Positions 13,727 through 52,666 of a stretch of DNA of 64,000 nt are shown in pieces; within the stretch, counting starts at the first letter, position 1, and each line of letters opens with the position of its first letter. Below the pieces are notes generated by a model. It saw nothing but the letters and a program-made list of their open reading frames with translations, did not search any database and was not told where the DNA came from. The DNA comes from Candidatus Magasanikiibacteriota bacterium (GTDB taxonomy: Bacteria > Patescibacteriota > Patescibacteriia > Magasanikbacterales > UBA922), in the NCBI GenBank assembly GCA_016193335.1, contig JACPSK010000001.1:422962-486961 (forward strand), read 5' to 3'. A program made the translations under genes and the position numbers.

Positions 13727-15322
13727 TCACTTCTTTTTGTTCTTACCACCACCCTTCTTCGGGTGGTCCTCCTTGGCCGGCGCCTCGGGCGCGGGGACCT
13801 GGTCCGAGGCCGTGGGCACCTCGACCTGATCGGCCGCGGCCTCCGCCACCTCGTCGGGGACGGACGGCATGGTCTCCGCGGCATCGGCCTCGGCCGTGGG
13901 CTCCGTGGCCAGGACGACCTCGGTGGCCGGCTCCGGCGCGACGGCCATGCCCTGGTCGGCCTTGGCCACCGCCTCGTCCTCGACGACCGACGTGGGCTCC
14001 GCCACAAGGTCAGCAGACGCGACCGGCACCGCCTTCGGCTCCCGCTTGGGCTCGGGGAGGCCGAGCTTCCGGCGGACCATGCGGTCCAGCTCGGTCGAGC
14101 TCATACCCCCCGCGGCCTTACGGAAGGCCTCGGCCACCGGTTCGACCCGATCATCCGCGGGGTTCTCCTGGTGGTGCTTGGCCTGGCGCTCGGCCGCGGC
14201 CTCCTTGAGGAGGCGCGTGACATCGAGGTTCCCGAGATCCGCGTCCTCGGGGAGAGCATCGACGATGCGCCTCGCCGACTTGTTGGCGGACTTGACGGTG
14301 GGCACGCCGCCCATCCTCACCAGCCGCTCCCCGATCTCATCCACGAGTCGCTTCTTCGCCATGCGACGCGTGCGCTTGGCCTCGTCGGCCTCGGCCAGCG
14401 CCAGGAGCTCGGCACGCTCGGCCTCGATCTCCTCGCGGCTCCGCGGCCGGGGCATGCTGAAGAGCATGGCCAGCTCGGGGAGCTTGCGGGCCTCCCGAGC
14501 GATATTCATCTTCTGCGGGTCATCGGCGCTGATCTCTCGGATCTGTTCCTTGGTCATCACGCCGTGAGCCCGGAAGACCCTCTCCAGCTTGTCGAGCAGA
14601 TTCTGGAGCGTCCGAACCCGCTCCCGGTAGAGGCCGACGGCCTCGCCGGTGAGGTTCGGCTGGTCCTTCCGGAGCATGCCCTGGAGCTTGCGCATGTGCA
14701 TCTCCGTGAGGATGACGAAACGCATACCCGCGGACCACTTGGCGTTCCGCCAGACCAAGTCCGGGAAGATCCCGGCCAGCTCGGTCCGCAGGGGGTGCCC
14801 CACCTCGATGGGCCCGCGCTCCGGCGGCGGGGCGACCACGCGGGCCGTCTGTCCGCCCTCGTCCGCCAGCATGGCCGTGCCGGCCTTCGAGTGGCCGTTG
14901 CCACCGACCTTGCCCTTGGGGGTCTCGACGGCGGGCGGCGGGGCCACGGGCGCGGGCTCGGCGGGCTCCTCGTCGTCCTCGAACAGGAAGGCCATGGCCG
15001 CGGCCTGGGCCGCCTTGGCCTCGGCGATCTGCGCCTCGACGCCGCGCTTCCACTTCGTGACCATGAGGCCGCGACCCTCGGGGGTCGCGAGGAGATCCTC
15101 GGCCTTCATCGCAGCCAGACCGCGGAGGATCCGCTCGGACTTGGCCTTCGCCGCCTCGTCCTTGGCCACGGCCTGTTCGGCCTTGGCCTTCGTCGTCTTC
15201 TCCTCGATCAGCTGGACCGCGGTGGCCAGCAGCTCCTCGTTCGTGGGCTCACGGACGGTCGTGCCGTCCGACGTGAAGAAACCCGACTCGGATGCCACAA
15301 CCGCCTGCGTCTCATCGCTCAT
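13727..15322 (-). CDS. hypothetical acidic Ala/Glu/Lys/Pro-rich protein (~533 aa) in a high-GC island; no family recognised
   Basis: Continuous minus-strand ORF with G/C at nearly every third codon position. The start is taken at MSDETQAVV, and the tail ends KKGGGKNKKK. The flanks are AT-rich. Confidence 0.55.
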   Translation of the reverse strand: MSDETQAVVASESGFFTSDGTTVREPTNEELLATAVQLIEEKTTKAKAEQAVAKDEAAKAKSERILRGLAAMKAEDLLATPEGRGLMVTKWKRGVEAQIAEAKAAQAAAMAFLFEDDEEPAEPAPVAPPPAVETPKGKVGGNGHSKAGTAMLADEGGQTARVVAPPPERGPIEVGHPLRTELAGIFPDLVWRNAKWSAGMRFVILTEMHMRKLQGMLRKDQPNLTGEAVGLYRERVRTLQNLLDKLERVFRAHGVMTKEQIREISADDPQKMNIAREARKLPELAMLFSMPRPRSREEIEAERAELLALAEADEAKRTRRMAKKRLVDEIGERLVRMGGVPTVKSANKSARRIVDALPEDADLGNLDVTRLLKEAAAERQAKHHQENPADDRVEPVAEAFRKAAGGMSSTELDRMVRRKLGLPEPKREPKAVPVASADLVAEPTSVVEDEAVAKADQGMAVAPEPATEVVLATEPTAEADAAETMPSVPDEVAEAAADQVEVPTASDQVPAPEAPAKEDHPKKGGGKNKKK

Positions 15323-18173: not shown

Positions 18174-18560
18174 GTGAACAAGTCAAGGAGTATATTAATG
18201 AAAGCGGACAAAAAAGGCGTTATGAGTCCCTTCGTGGACGAAGGACGCATAGAGACTTGGCTGGCCCAGGAAAATCCCTCCGACGGGTTGGCGCTAAAGC
18301 TGGCGAGAATTATTTCTCGCTGGCACATGGAAGAAGGAAGACCGCTCGAGGTGGTCCTCCAAGCCATGCGCGACTATGGCGCAAAACGTCTGAGCTGGGA
18401 CAGCCTGAAACTTCGCGAGAGTCTTGAGCTTCTCGCGAATACGGGGACGCTCCGGCTTTCGGTTGCTCAAATCGAGGCCTTGGTCCGGAATGCGGCCCGC
18501 CTTCAGTCCAAACATTTGACTCAGAGGTACTCCTCTGAACCGCGTCGTCCTCGATGCTAG
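18174..18560 (+). CDS. hypothetical small protein (moderately GC-enriched)
   Basis: ORF only. It is followed by an intrinsic terminator. Confidence 0.35.
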   Translation: MNKSRSILMKADKKGVMSPFVDEGRIETWLAQENPSDGLALKLARIISRWHMEEGRPLEVVLQAMRDYGAKRLSWDSLKLRESLELLANTGTLRLSVAQIEALVRNAARLQSKHLTQRYSSEPRRPRC

Positions 18561-21237: not shown

Positions 21238-22341
21238 CTAAAATTGTGTGGACGAACGAAGCGCGCTTTGCGCTATACCAATCAACAAGCAGTTAATAAG
21301 TAAAGACGAACCCCCATAACTGACAAAAGGCAAGGTAACTCCTGTAACAGGCAGCATACCTATGGCAGCGCCTATATTTACCAAGAGCTGGAGCAAAAAC
21401 ATGAGAGCTATCCCCAAAACCGTGTAGGCGCCAAAATCACTCCGGCAGATCCGGGCGCTATGCACAAGACGCCAAAGAAGCACGGAATACACCAGCAAAA
21501 GAAGCAAAGCGCCCATAAAACCAAGTTCTTCTCCAATCACAGAAAAAATAAAGTCAGTCTGAGCCTCAGGCAAAAAATGCAATTGGCTTTGAGAACCAAA
21601 ACCAAGACCCCGGCCAAGCCATTTTCCAGACCCCACCGCGATAATTGATTGGCTTACATTATAGCCGGCGCCCAAAGGATCGCGTTCAGGATTCAAAAAT
21701 GTCAACAAACGTTCCTTCTGATAATCCTGGAAGAAAAAAAACCATCCCAATACCATGGCCAACACTACAAAACCGACCAAGGAAACAATATAGCGTTTCT
21801 TTGTTCTCGAAACCAAGAGCAAAGAAAACCAAATACCGGCGAGAATTGCCGCTGAACCGAGATCCGGCTGAGCAATGATAAGCCCAACCAAGAGAAAAGT
21901 CATAAAACCCGTGGCAAGGACAAACTGCCACCGGTCAAACCTCCGCCCCTGTCTTTCTATGCGCCAGCCCAAAAACAATATCAAAGCGAGTTTAGCAAAC
22001 TCAGCCGGCTGAAAGGAAAAGCCGGCGACACGAAACCAACCTGTTGTGCCGCGTATCGTCTGCCCAAAAAACAAAACAAGCACCAGGAGAAAAAACGCAG
22101 ACAGGTAAGCCAAAAGGGCTTGTGATTCAAAAAAGGAAATATGAACAAAACCAAGAACCAAAATAGCCAAAAAACCCAAAGACAGAGCCAAAAGCTGAGT
22201 CGGAAAAAAAATAAGATCCTCTCCCCGAGACAGATCCACGCTGTATATGGCGGCCATACCCACCATGCTCAGAATCAAGACAGCGGCCACCAATATCCAG
22301 TCGAAGCTTCGCAAACCCAATCCAATGTGTGTAGAGCGGGA
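21238..22341 (-). CDS. SEDS family peptidoglycan glycosyltransferase (RodA/FtsW)
   Basis: Polytopic; the start is taken at MSRSTHIG. Confidence 0.8.
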   Translation of the reverse strand, partial: SRSTHIGLGLRSFDWILVAAVLILSMVGMAAIYSVDLSRGEDLIFFPTQLLALSLGFLAILVLGFVHISFFESQALLAYLSAFFLLVLVLFFGQTIRGTTGWFRVAGFSFQPAEFAKLALILFLGWRIERQGRRFDRWQFVLATGFMTFLLVGLIIAQPDLGSAAILAGIWFSLLLVSRTKKRYIVSLVGFVVLAMVLGWFFFFQDYQKERLLTFLNPERDPLGAGYNVSQSIIAVGSGKWLGRGLGFGSQSQLHFLPEAQTDFIFSVIGEELGFMGALLLLLVYSVLLWRLVHSARICRSDFGAYTVLGIALMFLLQLLVNIGAAIGMLPVTGVTLPFVSYGGSSLLINCLLIGIAQSALRSSTQF

Positions 22342-22387
22342 CATGAAAAAAAGACAAATGTCGTGTTGTTGTAACCGCGTCACTCCG

Positions 22388-23361: not shown

Positions 23362-25577
<2,216 letters not shown>

Positions 25578-25656
25578 AATATTTCCATTCCATTGCATGG
25601 AAGCCTTTGCTTAACATTCAATGGAATGGAAGAGTTCGTATTGGCGAACTCTTTAA

Positions 25657-25992
25657 TCAAGGGCTTGCGGCCGCGGTCTCCTCGAGAGGGGGCCCGCAGA
25701 CCAACACCTGCGTGCCGTAGCTCATGCGGCGCGCGGAGCCCTCATCGAGACCATTGCAGGCCAAGGTGTGAGGCAAGGTAGCCCCCCGGGACCGGTACTG
25801 GTCCACTCGGGTGGCAACCCGCTCCCCGTCGGTCAGACGGACATTCTCCTCGATCACTCGCCAGGAGTTGGGGATCTCTTGGCGAGGAGCCTCAACGGGC
25901 TCTGCGATGGCCCCCCTCCAGGCGAGGACCGCCCAAACCCAAACACCTACAATACAAAGTCCGAAAACGAACCAGCCAATCAATCTCTTCAT
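25657..25992 (-). CDS. hypothetical small protein with an N-terminal signal/anchor, in a GC-rich island
   Basis: MKRLIGWFVFGLCIVGVWVWAVLA…. There is a GGAGAG RBS 4 nt before the ATG, and third codon positions are G/C-rich. The 3' end runs through a NotI-SacII-XhoI-ApaI site cluster. Confidence 0.45.
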   Translation of the reverse strand: MKRLIGWFVFGLCIVGVWVWAVLAWRGAIAEPVEAPRQEIPNSWRVIEENVRLTDGERVATRVDQYRSRGATLPHTLACNGLDEGSARRMSYGTQVLVCGPPLEETAAASP

Positions 25993-26087
25993 GTGCCTCT
26001 CCTATGTTGCCCTCATACATTCTCGCAAGAATACATAAAGGCCACATAGGATACAAAAACAACTCAACATAGCATATTTATCCACTT

Positions 26088-26103
26088 TTGTCAAGCTTGA
26101 CAA
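26088..26103. promoter_or_regulatory. perfect 16-bp palindrome TTGTCAAGCTTGACAA overlapping the -35 of the secE-nusG promoter; candidate operator
   Basis: Read directly. TATAAT lies at 26109-26114 and TATAGT at 26120-26125. A DnaA-box-like tttatccac lies at 26077-26085. Confidence 0.4.
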
Positions 26104-26167
26104 TATCATATAATGAAGCTATAGTGTAAGCATCAATCGGCCACAGGCCGTTTTTAAATACAAAAAT

Positions 26168-26359
26168 ATGGCTTTATTCGGCAAAATTTCTCTTTATCTT
26201 AAAGAATCGATCTTAGAGCTCAAAAAAGTGGTCTGGCCGAGCAGAACACAGACCATCAACCTTTCTATAGTGGTAATCGCCATGAGCATAGGCGTGGCTG
26301 TATTTTTTGCGGTTCTCGACAATGTATTTAATCTGGGAGTTGAATATCTGATCAAATAA
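26168..26359 (+). CDS. secE: preprotein translocase subunit SecE
   Basis: 63 aa with a single TM helix; immediately upstream of nusG-rplK. Confidence 0.8.
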   Translation: MALFGKISLYLKESILELKKVVWPSRTQTINLSIVVIAMSIGVAVFFAVLDNVFNLGVEYLIK

Positions 26360-26410
26360 GACCAGCCTCTGGACGCTTGGCGCGGCCCGGCTTCCGAATC
26401 CTATAAAACT

Positions 26411-26956
26411 ATGGCAAAACAAAACCCAAACTTAGGCAAACGCTGGTACGTGATTCACACGTATAGCGGTTACGAAGAAAACGTAAAACAAAACCTGGAA
26501 CAGCGCATCGAATCTTTTGATATGCAGCACAAAATTTTCAGTGTTTTGGTTCCCAAAGAAAAAAAGATAAAGATAAAAAACGGGAAACGGACTTCTGTGG
26601 AAGAAAAAATATTCCCCGGCTACGTGCTGGTGGAAATGATTGTAACCGACGACTCTTGGTACGTGGTCCGAAACACTCCCAATGTAACTGGTTTCGTGGG
26701 CGCCGGCACGGTTCCAACTCCCATTGACTTAAAAGAAGTTCAATCTCTGATGGAAAGAATGACTGCGGAAGAACCCACGCACAAGATAGATGTGGAAGTG
26801 AATTCCCCTGTCCGTATCAGTGACGGCCCTTTCAAAAATTTTGAAGGCAAAGTGAGCGCTGTTGATGAAAATAGAGGCAAAATAAAAGTGATGGTAAACA
26901 TGTTCGGACGAGAAACACCGGTGGAGCTTGATGCTTTGCAAGTAAAAAAAATATAA
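26411..26956 (+). CDS. nusG: transcription termination/antitermination factor NusG
   Basis: RWYVIHTYSGYEENV (NGN) and a KOW-type C-terminus. Confidence 0.9.
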   Translation: MAKQNPNLGKRWYVIHTYSGYEENVKQNLEQRIESFDMQHKIFSVLVPKEKKIKIKNGKRTSVEEKIFPGYVLVEMIVTDDSWYVVRNTPNVTGFVGAGTVPTPIDLKEVQSLMERMTAEEPTHKIDVEVNSPVRISDGPFKNFEGKVSAVDENRGKIKVMVNMFGRETPVELDALQVKKI

Positions 26957-28837: not shown

Positions 28838-29518
28838 ATGTCAAAACGGATGAAAGACCTAAGGACCAAGGTCGACAAAACAAAGGTCTATACGCTCGAT
28901 GAAGCCCTGCGATTGGTTAAAGAAACCAGCAATGTGAAATTCGACGCCAGTGTGGAAGTACACGTACGTCTGGGCATCAACACCAAAAAAAGCGACCAAC
29001 AAATTCGATCCACCGTAAGTCTGCCCAGTGGCAGCGGCAAAACGAAACGCGTCGCCGCCTTTGTGGGCCCAAACGACGAAAAAATGGCCAAAGAAGCCGG
29101 AGCGGATAGAGTGCTTGGAGAAGAGGATATAAAGACCCTAAAAGACGGAGCGAAAATCGATTTCGACGTAGCGGTGGCCACTCCTGAAATGATGCCAAAA
29201 CTGGCGATGGCGGCCAAAATACTCGGCCCCAAAGGTCTGATGCCGAACCCAAAAACAGAGACCGTAGGGACAGACATAAAAAAAATGGTAGAAAGCCTTA
29301 AAAAAGGGAAACTCGCTTTCAAAAATGATGAGGGCGGCAATGTGCATGTGGCTATAGGTAAAGTAAGTTTTAATGAAAACGCCCTGAAAGAAAACTACAC
29401 CGCCTTCATGGATGTATTGAAAAAAATAAAACCAAGTTCAAGCAAAGGAATCTATATCAAACAGGTGTATCTGACCACTTCAATGGGGCCGAGCATAAAA
29501 ATGGAAAAACCCGAATAA
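28838..29518 (+). CDS. rplA: 50S ribosomal protein L1
   Basis: Full-length L1. There is no rplJ/rplL/rpoB downstream. Confidence 0.95.
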   Translation: MSKRMKDLRTKVDKTKVYTLDEALRLVKETSNVKFDASVEVHVRLGINTKKSDQQIRSTVSLPSGSGKTKRVAAFVGPNDEKMAKEAGADRVLGEEDIKTLKDGAKIDFDVAVATPEMMPKLAMAAKILGPKGLMPNPKTETVGTDIKKMVESLKKGKLAFKNDEGGNVHVAIGKVSFNENALKENYTAFMDVLKKIKPSSSKGIYIKQVYLTTSMGPSIKMEKPE

Positions 29519-31372: not shown

Positions 31373-33991
31373 ATGGCAGCACTTTTCAGAAGAAGGGAAT
31401 CTGTACCAGAACCGCATACTGAACCAGCCGAGAACGATGGCGGAGATTTCGACGCGGACACAAAAAAATGGTTCGCGGAATTTGAGGGTGATAATCCGTA
31501 TGCCAAACCGGGCATGATGGCCAAAGTAGCCGCGTCGGACAGAGCAGACGCAGAATACAGGGCAAGAATGAAGGCTCCTGAACCAAAAAAAATGCGCGAG
31601 CCAAACAGACTGGCCAAATTTTTGGGCCTGGGAGTCTTGAGAAATTGGGAAAAAGAAGCTGCGTGGCTTGAAGAGCAGGAAAAGATGAACAGAGAAACAG
31701 CGGAACGCATAGCCGCTGAGCATACGGTGGAACAAAATCTTAAAAGGGCCGGCGAAGAGGCCGAAGAGACTCAAGCGGCCCTAAGACAAGCTCAAGGTAA
31801 GGCTGGTGAAGGAACCCCCGGGGCTCTGCGCCTCCGTGTATTATCTGGGGAAGCAAGACAAAATAAAAGAGCTCTAACATTTGCGGCCAGGAATGCCAGG
31901 GCAGAGCTTAGAATGGTAAGACCGGTAGACCCCAAAAGCGTCCCCGAGAAACGTATTCAAGAGCTTCTCGACGAGGCTGAAGACGAAGATACACTTTCCT
32001 ACGGCCAAGACGGGCATATGCCTTTTGAGTCTTCAGGACAAAAACCAAAAGCAGAAGATACTCAACAAGCCAACGCAGAAAACGCCGAAGACCCAGCTCT
32101 GGAAACTGTAAAAGCAGAGCTCTTGGCCATGTTTAAGGCGGAAGAAAACGAAGGTGTGCATCCTGAAGTCTTGGCAGACGATATAGTAAAGAGTGATTTT
32201 GTGCTTGGGGATCCTGAGCAGGCTCTCAAAGCTCTCTCTGATACCATTAGTGGACTCAAAAAAGGATTGCTAAAAAGAGGCATACGCGTAAGTGAGGAAG
32301 GCACCGTACTTCTTGATAAAGGATCCACGCGAGAAAAGCATCGGGAATATGAAAAACACAGAAAAACAGTGGATTGGCTGCAGGCTCTGATACTTGCGAA
32401 GGAGAAACTGGAGGCTAAGCAAGATACAGATGTGGCGGCTGGTGAAGATGACGATGACCAGCAAGAAAATCAAAATGCAGAATCAGATAATGCAAGAACA
32501 AGCGACAGAAAAAGTGAGGAAACTGAAGAGGGCGAAGGCGCGGAAAAAACTCTAACAGCAGAAGATCTCCTCGCGCAGATTGACATGGACGGAGAGCTCG
32601 TGGATGTGGTGCACCAACTGGCAAAGTTCGACGCATTGGACACTTCCAACACCGCAGGCCGACACCATGTTGATGATCTAATTGCCGAATTAAAAATAGA
32701 TCTTGAAGACCAAGGATATGAATTCGATGAAACAGGAGCAATAAAGCTTGATGATGAATCGAACCCAGTAACCGGAATAAAATACAAAAATCCCGATGAT
32801 AAAGGAAAAATAAAACTTCTACAAGGCTTATACGAAATGAGAGAACTCGAATCTTCTTCTCGCAAACAAAACGACGCCGTGGGATACGGCGAAGGCCAAG
32901 AATTTCCTTTTGATTCTTCCACTCCGGAAGAATATATAGGAAAAGAAGCGGACGAAGACGTTAAAAGACTCGCCTTGCGGATAAAAAACATGAAAAAAAT
33001 ATCAAATCCGCATGAAGGTCTTAAACGCAGGATCGCGGAGTTGCAGGGAGAACTGAGAGATTTAAAAAAAGGCAAAAAGAAAAAAACAGACCCGGAAAAA
33101 CCTCAAGCTACCCTTCACGAACAAACAGATATAGCAAGAGATGGAGAAGATGGAAACAGACCTTCAGAACTTGCGCCAGACCTGTCTGTTGAAAACGCTC
33201 AAGGAGACCATACGGAAGAAGACCCGAAAGAAATTGCTCTACGAAAGGTAAAAGCAGAGCTCTTGGCCATGTTTAAGGATGGGGATAATGAAGGCGTGCA
33301 TCCTGAAGTATTGGCAGGCGATATATTGGACAGTGATTTTATGCTAGAGGATCCCAAACTCGCGCTTGAGGCAGTGTCTGACTCAATTAGTGGTCTGAAA
33401 GATGGTCTCTTGAAAAGAGGCATACGAGTAAGTGACGAAGGAGCTGTCCTGCTTGATAAAGGATCTACCCGCGAACAAAACCCGAAGCACGAAAAACACA
33501 GAAAAACAATAGATTGGTTACAGGCTTTTATTAAGGTAAAAGAAAAACTAGAAAGACAATTGCAAAATCAAAACGACAAAGCCACAGCCTACGGCGAAGA
33601 CGGAGAAATGCCTTTCGAATCTCCAAAACTAAGCTTAGACGAGCGGATAAAACGGCTTACTCTGCGCGTAGAAACCATGAAAAAAATAACAAAGAAACCA
33701 CATGAAGGTCTTAAACGCAGGATCGCGGAATTGGAAGAGAGATTGGAAGCACTCAAAATGAAAAAAACAAAAGAAAAAGAAACCCAAGAACCTAAATCAG
33801 AACTTGCAGGCCGCCAAAAACCCCGAAGTACAAAGAAAGACGATATCCGAGCTCTTGGAGAAGAAATACAAAAATTGGATATCGAAGAGTTGGCCGAACG
33901 GCATAGAAACCCGCGGCGTGCCTTAGTCAGACAAAGCGGACCAAAAAGAGGGGCAGATGGAGACAAGGATACGCTTAAAAAAGCGGCCTGA
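31373..33991 (+). CDS. hypothetical 872-aa acidic, charge-rich protein with internal ~107-aa and ~60-aa repeats
   Basis: Two ~320-bp DNA repeats (32095-32415 and 33235-33555, ~80% identical), plus PHEGLKRRIAEL-containing repeats. No signal peptide and no family recognised. Confidence 0.6.
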   Translation: MAALFRRRESVPEPHTEPAENDGGDFDADTKKWFAEFEGDNPYAKPGMMAKVAASDRADAEYRARMKAPEPKKMREPNRLAKFLGLGVLRNWEKEAAWLEEQEKMNRETAERIAAEHTVEQNLKRAGEEAEETQAALRQAQGKAGEGTPGALRLRVLSGEARQNKRALTFAARNARAELRMVRPVDPKSVPEKRIQELLDEAEDEDTLSYGQDGHMPFESSGQKPKAEDTQQANAENAEDPALETVKAELLAMFKAEENEGVHPEVLADDIVKSDFVLGDPEQALKALSDTISGLKKGLLKRGIRVSEEGTVLLDKGSTREKHREYEKHRKTVDWLQALILAKEKLEAKQDTDVAAGEDDDDQQENQNAESDNARTSDRKSEETEEGEGAEKTLTAEDLLAQIDMDGELVDVVHQLAKFDALDTSNTAGRHHVDDLIAELKIDLEDQGYEFDETGAIKLDDESNPVTGIKYKNPDDKGKIKLLQGLYEMRELESSSRKQNDAVGYGEGQEFPFDSSTPEEYIGKEADEDVKRLALRIKNMKKISNPHEGLKRRIAELQGELRDLKKGKKKKTDPEKPQATLHEQTDIARDGEDGNRPSELAPDLSVENAQGDHTEEDPKEIALRKVKAELLAMFKDGDNEGVHPEVLAGDILDSDFMLEDPKLALEAVSDSISGLKDGLLKRGIRVSDEGAVLLDKGSTREQNPKHEKHRKTIDWLQAFIKVKEKLERQLQNQNDKATAYGEDGEMPFESPKLSLDERIKRLTLRVETMKKITKKPHEGLKRRIAELEERLEALKMKKTKEKETQEPKSELAGRQKPRSTKKDDIRALGEEIQKLDIEELAERHRNPRRALVRQSGPKRGADGDKDTLKKAA

Positions 33992-40166: not shown

Positions 40167-41105
40167 CTATTTTCGGCCGGCTTCAAAATCCAAGATCCAC
40201 TCGTTCGCCTCGGTGAACCTCTCGTAGAGCCAGGTCTTGATGGCCAGCTGATCTTCCGCCTCATCCGGCAGAACGCCAGGCGGCTCCACCAGCTCAAAAC
40301 GCACGAGAGCGCGAGTGCCCCCGTCTTGTGCTTTTCGAGCCAGCATATCCCAAGATTCGGTTTCACCATCCGGCTCAAGGCCGGGAGAAAACGCGGTGCT
40401 CATAAAGACCACCTGGGCTCCCGGAACCCCGCGGATCAAGGCCTGCGTCCCCCGGTAAGAAGGCGCGAGAGTCCGAAGGCTTTTTAGACTCAACAAAGGA
40501 TACCCCATGCCATGAAAGAAACGCAGGGCATCGGCGCGGCGGCCTCGGAAAGGCCTGCTCCTATCCGGAAAGAGCATAAAGAGCGGCGCCCGCTCACCAT
40601 TCAGGTTCGCAAGCCCTGCTTTGATAGCCGAGACCGCGGAGTCGCCCTTGCGCTTGCGGATAAACATGCCGCGAGCCAGCTTGACTCCAATGGCGAGCGG
40701 TATTGCTTGCCAGCGGTGCTTGGCGTCCGCCACCACGCGGGGCACCTTGCCACCGAACAAGTCAAGGATGTGTTCCACCATCCCCGGGATCACAGAGGTA
40801 AAGGGATGCGGGCCAATAAGCAGAATAGGTCGTTCATGGTCTATTCCCTCAAGACCCTGTGTCTCCCTTTCAACTTTCAAACCAAGGGATGGATAGCACT
40901 CCTTCATGGTCTCGACAATCCAGGACCGTACATAGGGCGCCATTTCCTTGCCCCTGATCCAAACCGCCCACAAAGCCCGCGCAAAAACCCAGCGGGTCAA
41001 AATCACCAACGCGCGCCACAAAATGCGTTTGCCGGAAACAAAATCAGGCGTTTTGCTCATCTCAGCCATGTTGCGTCCCTCCGTGTTTCCTATTTCTTCT
41101 ACCAT
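40167..41105 (-). CDS. hypothetical protein in a GC-rich island; weak acyltransferase-like resemblance (…LFPDRSRPF…)
   Basis: G/C-rich third codon positions. The family call is tentative only. Confidence 0.4.
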   Translation of the reverse strand: MVEEIGNTEGRNMAEMSKTPDFVSGKRILWRALVILTRWVFARALWAVWIRGKEMAPYVRSWIVETMKECYPSLGLKVERETQGLEGIDHERPILLIGPHPFTSVIPGMVEHILDLFGGKVPRVVADAKHRWQAIPLAIGVKLARGMFIRKRKGDSAVSAIKAGLANLNGERAPLFMLFPDRSRPFRGRRADALRFFHGMGYPLLSLKSLRTLAPSYRGTQALIRGVPGAQVVFMSTAFSPGLEPDGETESWDMLARKAQDGGTRALVRFELVEPPGVLPDEAEDQLAIKTWLYERFTEANEWILDFEAGRK

Positions 41106-41313: not shown

Positions 41314-41694
41314 CTAGACCAGGTAGAGCACAGTGATCACCACCATGGCCACACCGATGAGAATGAGAACCAGGCCTTCGATGGCCTGGAGCCAGCGATC
41401 CTCCGCGGAACGCTCGATACTCCCGATGTCGTCGTCGATGTACTGGGACCGCTCGGTCACGGCCCTTTCGATCTCAAAAACTCCCAGGAAGAAAATCAGG
41501 CCTCCGGGGAGGCCAAGGAACATACTCGCCACCTGGCGAGCAATCCCCCAGTAACTCTCAGGAGGGGTGTACCGCGCGGCCAGGTACATCAGGCCGCTTA
41601 CAATGAAGGTCAGCAGGGTACCGAAGAACAGGAAGGCGAAGGCCGCCTCCCAAAGGGCCGCGGCCCTCTTCTTCAATTCGTCCAAAAAAAACAT
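41314..41694 (-). CDS. hypothetical small membrane protein in a GC-rich island
   Basis: Three predicted TM helices, and an AGGAAA RBS 6 nt before the ATG. Confidence 0.45.
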   Translation of the reverse strand: MFFLDELKKRAAALWEAAFAFLFFGTLLTFIVSGLMYLAARYTPPESYWGIARQVASMFLGLPGGLIFFLGVFEIERAVTERSQYIDDDIGSIERSAEDRWLQAIEGLVLILIGVAMVVITVLYLV

Positions 41695-52294: not shown

Positions 52295-52666
52295 TCATCC
52301 TTCCCCCGCCTCGGTGCGAGACAGCCAGGTCTCCGCGTCGTTGCTATGTCTTATCAGCATACCGCCGAGCAAGGATGCTTCCACGGCTTCATCGGCCGAG
52401 AAGACGAGCAAAACCGCTCCCGGCAGAACCGCTTCCTCGGAGGCCACATAGACCTCTAAGTCTTCGGGGGGGAACCCTTTTCCTCTCATATCTTCAAGGA
52501 GCAAATCTATCCAGATAATCTCCGCGGCCCGGAGAATCCAGGCCAGCTCGCCTGACTCCGAACGGCTCTCACAGAGAACCTGGATCTCAAACTTGCCCAC
52601 CTCGGGGCGCTCAATACAACGGACCACCAAAGGCGGCCCCAAAACCACAACTCCTGCGTTCCGCAT
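52295..52666 (-). CDS. hypothetical small acidic protein (GC-rich)
   Basis: ORF with G/C-rich codons. A hairpin gcgctcagc-cggtt-gctgagcgc lies downstream. Confidence 0.35.
   Translation of the reverse strand: MRNAGVVVLGPPLVVRCIERPEVGKFEIQVLCESRSESGELAWILRAAEIIWIDLLLEDMRGKGFPPEDLEVYVASEEAVLPGAVLLVFSADEAVEASLLGGMLIRHSNDAETWLSRTEAGEG

What the first reader, a model, noticed from the sequence alone, without database searches (positions are those of the whole stretch)
25640..25995. Second GC-rich islet: a 111-aa signal/anchor protein after gyrB whose 3' end runs through NotI-SacII-XhoI-ApaI sites
The minus-strand ORF 25657..25992 (MKRLIGWFVFGLCIVGVWVWAVLA…) is again GC-rich in an AT-rich context. 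It has a plausible RBS (GGAGAG, 4 nt before the ATG). Its last 12 codons read through gggccccctctcgaggagaccgcggccgcaagcccttga. That stretch is ApaI (GGGCCC), XhoI (CTCGAG), BsaI (GGTCTC), SacII (CCGCGG) and NotI (GCGGCCGC) within ~35 bp, and it ends in a stop. Such a density of 6-8-bp cutter sites resembles a polylinker or cloning junction. In genuinely GC-rich DNA it could also be chance. Just upstream at 25586-25660 there are nested hairpins (ttccattccattg…caatggaatggaa and gagttcg-tattgg-cgaactc).
Basis: seen in the sequence. Interest (0 to 1): 0.5.

Follow-up and report, generated by a model that had tools for sequence, protein, structure and literature searches.

The report
Small membrane-anchored LysM protein gene
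The GC-rich patch after gyrB is a real, conserved gene for a small membrane-anchored cell-wall-binding (LysM-type) protein of an uncultured Magasanikbacteria-like bacterium; its restriction sites come from GC-rich codons, not from cloning.

Summary
ORF 25657-25992(-), 111 aa, has 63% GC against about 42% around it. ApaI, XhoI, BsaI, SacII and NotI lie within 29 bp at its 3' end, and two hairpins follow it.

The artefact reading fails. The identical sequence in the same gyrB|secE context occurs in 13 contigs, from an NCBI MAG and at least 9 independently assembled sequencing runs. Nothing matches in plasmids or phages. Four palindromic hexamers in 35 nt has P about 0.04, and nine other such clusters exist in this window. 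The NotI site is simply Ala-Ala-Ala (GCG GCC GCA), and two distant orthologues have the same site at the same tail motif.

It is a bitopic or secreted single-LysM protein, a divergent new member of a known kind.

One thing is unexplained: its G/C-ending codon usage (GAG:GAA 9:0 against 14:83 in neighbouring genes) persists across orthologues. It lies in a hypervariable slot that often carries GC-rich ORFans in relatives.

The parts
25657..25992 (-). Protein-coding gene, 111 aa: N-terminal hydrophobic anchor or signal, a LysM-like domain and a short Ala-rich tail
   Evidence: ORF. Identical in 13 contigs. Four orthologues at the same site. dN/dS is 0.34-0.47 against orthologues.
25906..25986 (-). 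Residues 3-29: single N-terminal hydrophobic helix (n-region MKR, 22-residue h-region). It is a signal-anchor or a long signal peptide with a possible AIA|EP cleavage site.
   Evidence: Kyte-Doolittle 19-residue mean is up to 2.29 at residues 5-23. The AlphaFold model has a helix at 3-29. Orthologues P0004 and P0006 have a lipobox (LSGC, LPGC) there instead.
25690..25860 (-). Residues 45-101: LysM-like beta-alpha-alpha-beta domain with invariant G56, GAT70-72, H75, T76, C79-N80-G81 and C99-G100
25667..25695 (.). Restriction-site cluster NotI/SacII/BsaI/XhoI/ApaI. In frame it reads G100 P101 (GGGCCC), L103 E104 (CTCGAG) and A107 A108 A109 (GCGGCCGCA).
   Evidence: NotI recurs at the GAAAP tail of orthologues L092 and L094 and is absent from L091 and L093.
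26066..26094 (-). Sigma-70-type promoter of the LysM gene: TTGACA, 17 nt, TGcTATGTT (extended -10)
   Evidence: 10 of 12 matches, TG present. The 26-nt motif TTGACARAWGTGGATAAWTATGCTAT is present in all five lineages and in none of 80 related genomes that lack the gene.
26089..26102 (.). Perfect palindrome TGTCAAGCTTGACA: back-to-back -35 boxes of the divergent LysM and secE-nusG promoters
   Evidence: + strand promoter at 26097-26125, 11 of 12 matches. Conserved in the orthologous loci.
25994..26061 (-). 5'UTR stem-loop (core 26000-26051). In this genome its 3' arm contains the Shine-Dalgarno AGGAGAGG (26003-25996).
   Evidence: dG -30.5 kcal/mol, z -5.6. Comparable hairpins occur in all four orthologous leaders, z -3.3 to -6.3, with different sequence in the L092/L094 subgroup. 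Rfam gives only sub-threshold miRNA-like hairpin matches.
25631..25652 (.). Hairpin 1 (AGAGTTCG-CCAATA-CGAACTCT), 4 nt after the stop codon: likely terminator of the LysM gene
   Evidence: The stem is conserved and the loop changed in L091 and L093.
25584..25630 (.). Hairpin 2 (TTCCATTCCATTG...CAATGGAATGGAA), 7 nt after the gyrB stop. With hairpin 1 it forms a likely bidirectional terminator between convergent genes.
   Evidence: L093 keeps it with a compensatory A-T to G-C change in the stem (sequences).

Best explanation
This is a genuine chromosomal gene of an uncultured Candidatus Magasanikbacteria-like (Patescibacteria/CPR) bacterium. It encodes a 111-aa protein with one N-terminal hydrophobic helix, a roughly 15-residue linker and a single divergent LysM-type domain carrying two invariant cysteines.

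Shown:
- The gene is transcribed divergently from secE-nusG, from a conserved sigma-70-type promoter.
- It has a structured 5' leader and ends at a pair of hairpins shared with convergent gyrB.

Inferred:
- The helix targets the protein through Sec and either stays as a membrane anchor or is cleaved. In two orthologues it is replaced by a lipoprotein signal.
- This leaves the LysM domain outside the membrane, where it binds N-acetylglucosamine-containing glycan. That glycan could be the cell's own peptidoglycan or the wall of a host cell.

The restriction-site cluster has no function. It results from GC-rich codons for Gly-Pro, Leu-Glu and Ala-Ala-Ala in the C-terminal tail.

The gene occupies a hypervariable slot between gyrB and secE. 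Its composition is foreign to the genome (G/C-ending codons, Arg in place of Lys). That points to an old horizontal acquisition by the ancestor of a small clade, followed by vertical descent.
For: Not an artefact:
- 13 contigs carry it. They come from one NCBI MAG (GCA_964404105.1) and Logan assemblies of at least 9 runs (the SRR12113xxx series and SRR4343435).
- All are 100% identical over the ORF and its flanks. The only two mismatches are at 29236 and 29795.
- No hit in 72,556 plasmids or 50,697 phages.

Real gene:
- Exhaustive phmmer finds P0002 (E 3.9e-23) and P0004 (E 7e-4).
- A profile search adds P0005 and P0006.
- All four lie divergent from secE and carry the same promoter motif.
- dN/dS is 0.17-0.47. 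dS is similar to that of the adjacent secE: 1.13 against 0.76 for one pair and 0.35 against 0.34 for another. That fits vertical co-inheritance under purifying selection.

LysM:
- P0004 passes Pfam PF01476 at 29.1 bits, E 9.3e-7.
- The window protein aligns to that region.
- AlphaFold2 gives pLDDT 76.5 and strand-helix-helix-(short helix)-strand over residues 45-100.

Anchor.

Restriction sites by chance. NotI equals the AAA codons and recurs in L092 and L094.

Variable slot: the gyrB-secE gap is 63-5212 bp in 60 relatives and none carries this gene.
Against: - The window protein itself gets no Pfam or NCBIfam hit, even at E 10. Foldseek against PDB is not significant (best E 2.5, although the first two hits are LysM proteins). 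The 5-sequence profile finds no LysM chain in PDB by sequence.
- The usual GD[ST] motif of the first LysM loop is DGE[RK] in the window subgroup. Glycan binding may therefore be altered or lost.
- The model rests on only 5 sequences.
- No signal-peptide predictor could be run, so anchor versus cleaved signal is undecided.
- Expression is not shown.
- No donor lineage was found for the proposed horizontal origin.
Confidence: 0.8

Rival explanations
1. Cloning-vector polylinker, synthetic junction or assembly chimera that was joined to a genomic contig.
For: Five commonly used restriction sites lie within 29 bp, directly before a stop codon. There is a 16-of-17 match to the ApaI-XhoI stretch of the pBluescript polylinker, which I wrote from memory; P is about 0.05 against shuffles.
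Against: - Identical sequence and flanks occur in 13 contigs from independent read sets.
- Diverged orthologues with the same promoter, leader and terminator exist in three other metagenome series.
- NotI lies at the homologous AAA motif in L092 and L094.
- No plasmid match.
- The site density is matched at 9 other places in the window.
- The sites lie in frame within a gene under purifying selection.
Confidence: 0.01
2. A YneA-like regulator: a small bitopic TM-LysM protein whose helix docks on a SEDS glycan polymerase (FtsW/RodA), while the LysM domain binds nascent peptidoglycan. This would inhibit or modulate wall synthesis or division rather than merely bind the wall.
For: [quoted passage not shown]
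- The best NCBIfam hit of orthologue P0004 is the YneA model NF010723 (E 3.5e-5, 23.7 bits).
- An FtsW/RodA-family gene lies 3.3 kb away, at 21238-22344.
- The gene has a strong promoter and a structured leader, consistent with regulated expression.
Against: - The YneA score is far below the curated cut-off of 60 bits and covers only the LysM part. The window protein gets no hit.
- There is no LexA (Cheo) box GAAC-N4-GTTC near the promoter.
- Two orthologues are lipoproteins that would lose the helix on processing. That argues against a conserved TM-TM contact.
- The gene is confined to a very small clade.
Confidence: 0.12
3. A recently imported foreign islet: a gene just acquired from a GC-rich donor (host bacterium or phage) and not a stable part of this lineage.
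For: - GC is 0.63 against 0.42 for the surroundings.
- GAG:GAA is 9:0 against 14:83, and Arg:Lys is 11:1 against 56:147.
- It sits in a slot that carries unrelated and often GC-rich cargo in relatives.
- Other GC-rich ORFans are scattered through the window.
Against: - Orthologues occupy the same site in lineages whose secE and nusG synonymous sites are at or near saturation relative to the window. They share promoter and terminators. The acquisition therefore predates their divergence.
- No homologue was found outside this clade among 1.8 billion representative proteins, nor in IMG/VR or JGI contigs.
- There are no flanking repeats, tRNA or integrase.
Confidence: 0.07
4. The ORF is spurious and the GC-rich segment is a non-coding element, either a structured RNA or a DNA signal.
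For: GC-rich DNA gives long ORFs in several frames, here also 93 aa and 75 aa on the + strand. The window protein itself has no Pfam hit.
Against: - dN/dS is below 0.5 in the proposed frame.
- Orthologues conserve the protein motifs, not the DNA.
- The RBS and start are conserved.
- There is a LysM hit and a confident fold.
- No Rfam family reaches threshold.
Confidence: 0.02

Closest known systems
LysM domain proteins (Pfam PF01476), the peptidoglycan- and chitin-binding beta-alpha-alpha-beta module
   Same: Orthologue P0004 passes the Pfam threshold. The window protein is homologous to it over the domain. Its model superposes on solved LysM domains such as EPR3, CEBiP, SleL, NlpC/P60 LysMs, AtlA and MltD. 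The Asn at the end of helix 2 (N80) is invariant.
   Different: The window subgroup is too diverged for any curated model. It has DGE[RK] in place of GD[ST]. It has an extra short helix at residues 84-88. It carries two invariant cysteines (C79, C99) that ordinary bacterial LysM domains lack. Whether they form a disulphide was not tested.
YneA of Bacillus subtilis, the SOS-induced division inhibitor (NCBIfam NF010723)
   Same: It is a small protein (~105 aa, from memory) made of one N-terminal transmembrane helix and one extracellular LysM domain (PMC13396833). It is the top NCBIfam match of orthologues P0004 and P0006.
   Different: The score is well below the family cut-off (23.7 against 60 bits). 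No LexA box is present. Two orthologues have a lipoprotein signal instead of a TM anchor. Nothing links this gene to DNA damage. It is not a member.
Small LysM lipoproteins and LysM-anchored envelope proteins of bacteria, such as the LysM regions of intimin and of NlpC/P60 endopeptidases
   Same: They combine an extracytoplasmic LysM with a lipid or membrane tether. Structural hits include 2mpw, 4uz2 and 4xcm.
   Different: Those proteins carry the LysM as an accessory to a catalytic or adhesin domain. Here the LysM is the only domain.

Membership tests
LysM domain (PF01476) | Sequence match to the Pfam LysM model at or above the gathering score (20.9 bits) | tested here: inconclusive
   The window protein has no hit even at E 10. 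Its syntenic orthologue P0004 scores 29.1 bits, E 9.3e-7, residues 49-94 on model positions 2-42 of 43. The window protein aligns to that same stretch at 42% identity, E 1e-13 pairwise, and E 7e-4 against 1.8 billion proteins.
LysM domain (PF01476) | Beta-alpha-alpha-beta fold of about 45-60 residues | tested here: met
LysM domain (PF01476) | Conserved ligand-groove residues (GD[ST] after strand 1; Asn at the end of helix 2) | tested here: inconclusive
   N80 and G56 are invariant. GDS is present in P0004 and P0006 but is DGE[RK] in the window protein, P0002 and P0005.
LysM domain (PF01476) | Binding of GlcNAc-containing glycans (peptidoglycan, chitin) | not testable with these tools
   Needs a pull-down or ITC with the purified ectodomain.
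YneA cell-division suppressor (NF010723) | Match to the equivalog model at or above 60 bits | tested here: not met
   P0004 scores 23.7 bits and P0006 17.5 bits. The window protein has no hit.
YneA cell-division suppressor (NF010723) | Single TM helix followed by an extracellular LysM domain, about 100 aa | tested here: met
   Helix 3-29 plus LysM-like 45-101 in 111 aa. The YneA architecture is taken from PMC13396833.
YneA cell-division suppressor (NF010723) | SOS control through a LexA operator in the promoter | tested here: not met
   No GAAC-N4-GTTC site with at most 1 mismatch between 25993 and 26170. Other operator types were not tested.
Cloning-vector polylinker or synthetic junction | Sequence found in vectors or plasmids, or absent from independent assemblies of the organism | tested here: not met
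   No plasmid match. The sequence is identical in 13 independent contigs. Orthologues exist. UniVec itself was not available.
Bacterial lipoprotein (SPase II substrate) | Lipobox [LVI][ASTVI][GAS]C at the end of the signal peptide | tested here: not met
   The window protein has FGLC at 10-13, which does not fit, and no Cys after the h-region. Orthologues P0004 (LSGC) and P0006 (LPGC) do have lipobox-like motifs. This was judged by eye; no predictor was run.

The most novel reading that the evidence does not exclude
The islet may be one example of a class of compositionally foreign accessory genes in Magasanikbacteria-like genomes. These genes have G/C-ending codons, Arg in place of Lys, and mostly secreted or ORFan products.

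Under this reading their non-host codon usage is actively maintained rather than decaying. Possible causes are selection for rare codons in exported proteins, or GC-biased gene conversion at recombination-prone slots such as gyrB|secE.

The LysM protein itself would then act at the symbiont-host interface, or act like YneA on the nearby FtsW/RodA synthase.
Probability: 0.15. Interest if true: 0.5.

Novelty: new member of a known kind. Interest (0 to 1): 0.22.

Why it matters
The main value is that a suspected contamination is cleared. The segment is authentic, and the contig needs no trimming.

Biologically it adds a very divergent single-LysM surface protein to the small repertoire of envelope proteins of a CPR lineage with no cultured member. 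Wall-binding proteins are candidates for attachment to a host cell or for control of the symbiont's own wall synthesis.

Two side observations could be followed up across CPR genomes:
- The gyrB|secE junction is a hypervariable cargo slot.
- The cargo keeps a codon usage opposite to the host's.

Both bear on how these reduced genomes acquire and keep accessory genes. On present evidence they are descriptive.

Tried and rejected
- Rfam on 25000-26600 gave only sub-threshold miRNA-like hairpin matches. These reflect the 5'UTR stem-loop, not an RNA family.
- P0003, a 1126-aa repeat protein, matched residues 78-104 ten times. I judged this spurious, as summed weak repeat matches of the type '...CCGPEKE'.
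- A profile of the five proteins against PDB sequences hit the designed TIM barrels sTIM11 and HalluTIM. Per-repeat E-values were only 0.3-7 and were summed over 4 repeats. I rejected this as a chance similarity to a de novo design.
- Scans of JGI metagenome contigs and IMG/VR with family patterns found no relatives.
- tblastn against phages and blastn against plasmids found nothing.
- tblastn of the protein against 80 related genomes found no homologue. The 111-aa GC-rich ORF in the same slot of L036 has the same length but is unrelated.
- The pBluescript, pET and pUC polylinkers, written from memory, gave a best match of 16 of 17 with P about 0.05. This is not meaningful after three tries, and the independent assemblies outweigh it.
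- A LexA-box search found none near the promoter.
- No tRNA gene occurs in the window, so tRNA-targeted integration is not indicated.
- My first impression was that GC3 excess proves maintenance by selection. I tempered this: 4-fold sites do not differ from the flanks. The excess lies at 2-fold sites, mainly purine-ending, and in amino-acid choice. Incomplete amelioration cannot be excluded for the deeper split.
- The 531-aa protein of the first GC-rich islet was searched to look for a GC-rich donor. It has no homologue but itself.
- Literature searches for LysM in Patescibacteria, and for GC-rich transfer in Magasanikbacteria, gave nothing relevant.

Full report
**1. What is in the sequence**

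The minus-strand ORF 25657..25992 encodes 111 aa. In 60-nt windows GC rises from 0.33-0.43 at 25530-25650 to 0.60-0.73 across 25650-25950. It falls back to 0.28-0.45 beyond 25980. The window average is about 0.44.

ORF GC is 0.63, with GC1/2/3 of 0.63/0.54/0.73. gyrB and nusG next door have GC3 of 0.49 and 0.46.

The restriction sites are present as described: NotI 25667, SacII 25671, BsaI 25675, XhoI 25681 and ApaI 25690. A Shine-Dalgarno AGGAGAGG ends 4 nt before the ATG.

Downstream there are two tandem hairpins, not nested ones: 25631-25652 and 25584-25630. Their joint dG is -33.8 kcal/mol with z -6.3. They fill the 79-nt spacer to the stop codon of convergent gyrB (23427..25577).

**2. 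Is the site cluster more than chance?**

Barely.
- Four palindromic hexamers within 35 nt occur in 4.3% of dinucleotide-preserving shuffles of the ORF. They occur in 4.5% of versions that keep the protein and its codon usage.
- The same density is reached at nine other places in this window.
- Palindromic hexamers per kb (23.8) match the other GC-rich ORFs of the window (23.4 and 23.6).

Read in frame, the sites are ordinary codons:
- GGG CCC is Gly100-Pro101.
- CTC GAG is Leu103-Glu104.
- GCG GCC GCA is Ala107-Ala108-Ala109.

NotI appears in 11% of codon-permuted versions of this protein. A 16-of-17 match to the ApaI-XhoI part of the pBluescript polylinker (written from memory) has P about 0.05. 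It was one of three vectors tried.

**3. Artefact test**

The exact protein is encoded on 13 contigs. These are the NCBI MAG GCA_964404105.1 (contig CAYOIR010000001.1, from which the window comes) and Logan assemblies of single runs: SRR12113383, -390, -401, -418, -419, -420, -426, -428 and SRR4343435.

All ten fetched loci are collinear with the window across the ORF and both GC boundaries. Nine are 100% identical. The SRR4343435 contig has two mismatches, at 29236 and 29795, far from the ORF.

There is no match in 72,556 plasmids (blastn) or 50,697 phages (tblastn).

**4. Relatives and context**

A word-indexed search of 5.8 billion proteins found only the protein itself. Exhaustive phmmer over 1.84 billion representatives found P0002 (122 aa, 54% identity, E 3.9e-23) and P0004 (110 aa, E 7e-4). 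A profile search then added P0005 and P0006.

All four are encoded divergently from secE-nusG-rplK, at the position the window gene holds:
- L091, Hainich groundwater
- L092, L093 and L094, runs of the SRR22388xxx series

In L092 the whole neighbourhood matches the window: L11, a 2-hydroxyacid dehydrogenase, L1, dCMP deaminase and dUTPase. L094 has a BrnT/BrnA toxin-antitoxin pair downstream of the gene.

The five loci share several features.
- They share the 26-nt promoter motif TTGACARAWGTGGATAAWTATGCTAT (-35, 17-nt spacer, TG-extended -10). It occurs once in the window and in none of 80 related genomes.
- Its -35 box is half of a perfect palindrome, TGTCAAGCTTGACA (26089-26102). The other half is the -35 of the secE promoter.
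- Each leader folds into a stable stem-loop (z -3.3 to -6.3). The sequence differs between the two subgroups, and L093 has an apical insertion that extends the stem. In the window its 3' arm covers the Shine-Dalgarno. In L091 and L093 a second, free SD-like site lies downstream, so occlusion is not a conserved feature.
- The terminator hairpins are conserved in L091 and L093, with one compensatory A-T to G-C change.

**5. Coding and selection**

Against the orthologues dN/dS is 0.17-0.47. For secE the values are 0.06-0.22.

dS of the gene tracks that of secE: 1.13 against 0.76 for window-L091, and 0.35 against 0.34 for L091-L093. Against the L092/L094 subgroup, pS is 0.79-0.87 for secE and nusG, which is saturated, and 0.67-0.71 for the gene, which is close to saturation.

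So the ORF is translated and under purifying selection. It evolves about four times faster than secE at the protein level, and it has been inherited together with its flanks.

**6. What the protein is**

The first 25 residues have a basic n-region (MKR) followed by a 22-residue hydrophobic stretch. The Kyte-Doolittle 19-residue mean reaches 2.29. The AlphaFold model makes a helix of residues 3-29.

P0004 and P0006 have lipobox-like LSGC and LPGC at the corresponding place. Export is therefore the conserved property, and the tether varies.

P0004 passes Pfam LysM: 29.1 bits against a gathering score of 20.9, E 9.3e-7. The window protein aligns to exactly that region at 42% identity over 62 residues. 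It shares the invariant positions G56, G70-A71-T72, H75, T76, C79-N80-G81 and C99-G100.

The window protein alone gets no curated-model hit, and Foldseek is not significant. The assignment therefore rests on three things: homology to a bona fide member, the predicted fold, and synteny. I put it at about 0.8.

Glycan binding is inferred. The GD[ST] loop motif is changed to DGE[RK] in the window subgroup.

**7. How it probably works**

Shown:
- a conserved promoter, leader and terminators
- an export signal
- a LysM fold
- purifying selection

Inferred:
- Sec-dependent insertion places the LysM outside the membrane, tethered by the helix or by a lipid in the other subgroup.
- There it binds peptidoglycan or another GlcNAc polymer.
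- The two invariant cysteines may form a stabilising disulphide, as in eukaryotic LysM proteins. This was not tested.
- The 5' stem-loop may protect the mRNA 5' end or tune translation.

The closest functional analogue by architecture is B. subtilis YneA. It has a single TM domain plus an extracellular LysM, and it blocks septal peptidoglycan synthesis by binding FtsW (PMC13396833). The YneA model is the top NCBIfam hit of P0004, but it lies far below the cut-off. No LexA box is present, and the lipoprotein orthologues argue against a conserved TM contact. I keep this as a rival at about 0.12.

**8. The GC-richness**

It is not only a matter of amino-acid composition. Comparing the gene with gyrB, secE, nusG, rplK and rplA:
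- Glu is GAG:GAA 9:0, against 14:83.
- Purine-ending two-fold sites are 17 G to 2 A. In 22 host genes the fraction of G is 0.33.
- Arg:Lys is 11:1, against 56:147.

Four-fold sites differ little: GC 0.67 against 0.62 in the flanks and 0.56 in the 22 host genes.

Orthologues L091 and L093 keep the bias: GAG:GAA 8:1 and 7:1, AAG:AAA 6:0 and 6:1. This holds despite dS of about 1 to the window gene. L092 and L094 are intermediate: 3:6 and 6:4, against 7:57 in their flanks.

So the gene has had a foreign composition since before these lineages split. There are two possible explanations:
- It has ameliorated slowly after an old acquisition.
- Its composition is maintained, by selection or by biased gene conversion.

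The data do not decide between them.

**9. The slot**

In 60 related Magasanikbacteria, Uhrbacteria and other Patescibacteria genomes the order p310(-), gyrB(+), secE(+), nusG(+) is conserved. The gyrB-secE gap, however, ranges from 63 to 5212 bp. Of these, 25 gaps are 305 bp or less and 35 are 449 bp or more.

The cargo differs from genome to genome and none is this LysM gene. Several cargo ORFs are much more GC-rich than their genome:
- L017, 219 aa, GC3 0.96
- L022, 145 aa with a lipobox, GC3 0.84
- L029, 155 aa with a lipobox and a weak fn3 match, GC3 0.85
- L036, 111 aa, GC 0.64

Most have no Pfam hit.

The window has further GC-rich ORFs without family assignment. They lie at 13727-15322 (GC3 0.92, with no homologue at all), 18198-18560, 40167-41105, 41314-41694 and 52295-52666.

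**10. Verdict**

The segment is authentic. It encodes a divergent, exported single-LysM protein, which is a new member of a known kind. The polylinker resemblance is a coincidence of GC-rich codons. Interest is low to modest. The persistent non-host codon usage and the variable gyrB|secE slot are the only unusual aspects.

Noticed in passing
window 25578-26167; loci L011-L090, between gyrB and secE: The gyrB|secE junction is a hypervariable cargo slot. It measures 63-5212 bp in 60 related Patescibacteria genomes, and cargo differs between genomes. The cargo is often GC-richer than its genome, lacks Pfam hits, and several ORFs have lipoprotein-like signals.
   Followed up: partly
window 13727-15322 (-): This is the first GC-rich islet: a 531-aa Ala/Glu/Pro-rich protein with GC 0.70 and GC3 0.92. 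It has no homologue other than itself among 5.8 billion proteins, and only a weak DUF5855 match.
   Followed up: partly
window 18198-18560 (+), 40167-41105 (-), 41314-41694 (-), 52295-52666 (-): These are further ORFs with GC 0.56-0.58 and GC3 0.62-0.78 in a genome of about 44% GC. The two that were scanned (40167-41105 and 41314-41694) have no significant Pfam hit. 41314-41694 looks like a multi-pass membrane protein.
   Followed up: no
L014, L024, L027, L048 (gyrB of relatives): In these relatives the gyrB match is split after about residue 486 by 0.7-1.3 kb of extra sequence. That is consistent with an intein or another insertion in the Toprim region. The window's gyrB is uninterrupted.
   Followed up: no
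L094 982-1591: One orthologous locus carries a BrnT toxin / CopG-like BrnA antitoxin pair directly downstream of the LysM gene. This is another sign that the slot accepts mobile cargo.
   Followed up: no
window 31373-33991 (+), 872-aa ORF: The ORF contains internal direct repeats of about 290 nt at 77% identity (window ~32096-32386 against ~33236-33526). It has no Pfam family on record.
   Followed up: no
window 26138-26150 (+): A GC-only hairpin, CGGCCACAGGCCG, followed by TTTTTAAATA lies between the secE promoter and the secE start. It is conserved in the orthologous loci as CGGCCTGTGGCCG or CGGCCTGCGGCCG on the other strand. It may be a leader attenuator or a terminator-like element in the secE 5'UTR.
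   Followed up: no
record titles of loci L011-L090: Many MAGs whose NusG is 70-86% identical to this Patescibacteria gene are titled 'uncultured Gammaproteobacteria bacterium' in their TPA records. This appears to be a labelling error in the source records.
   Followed up: no
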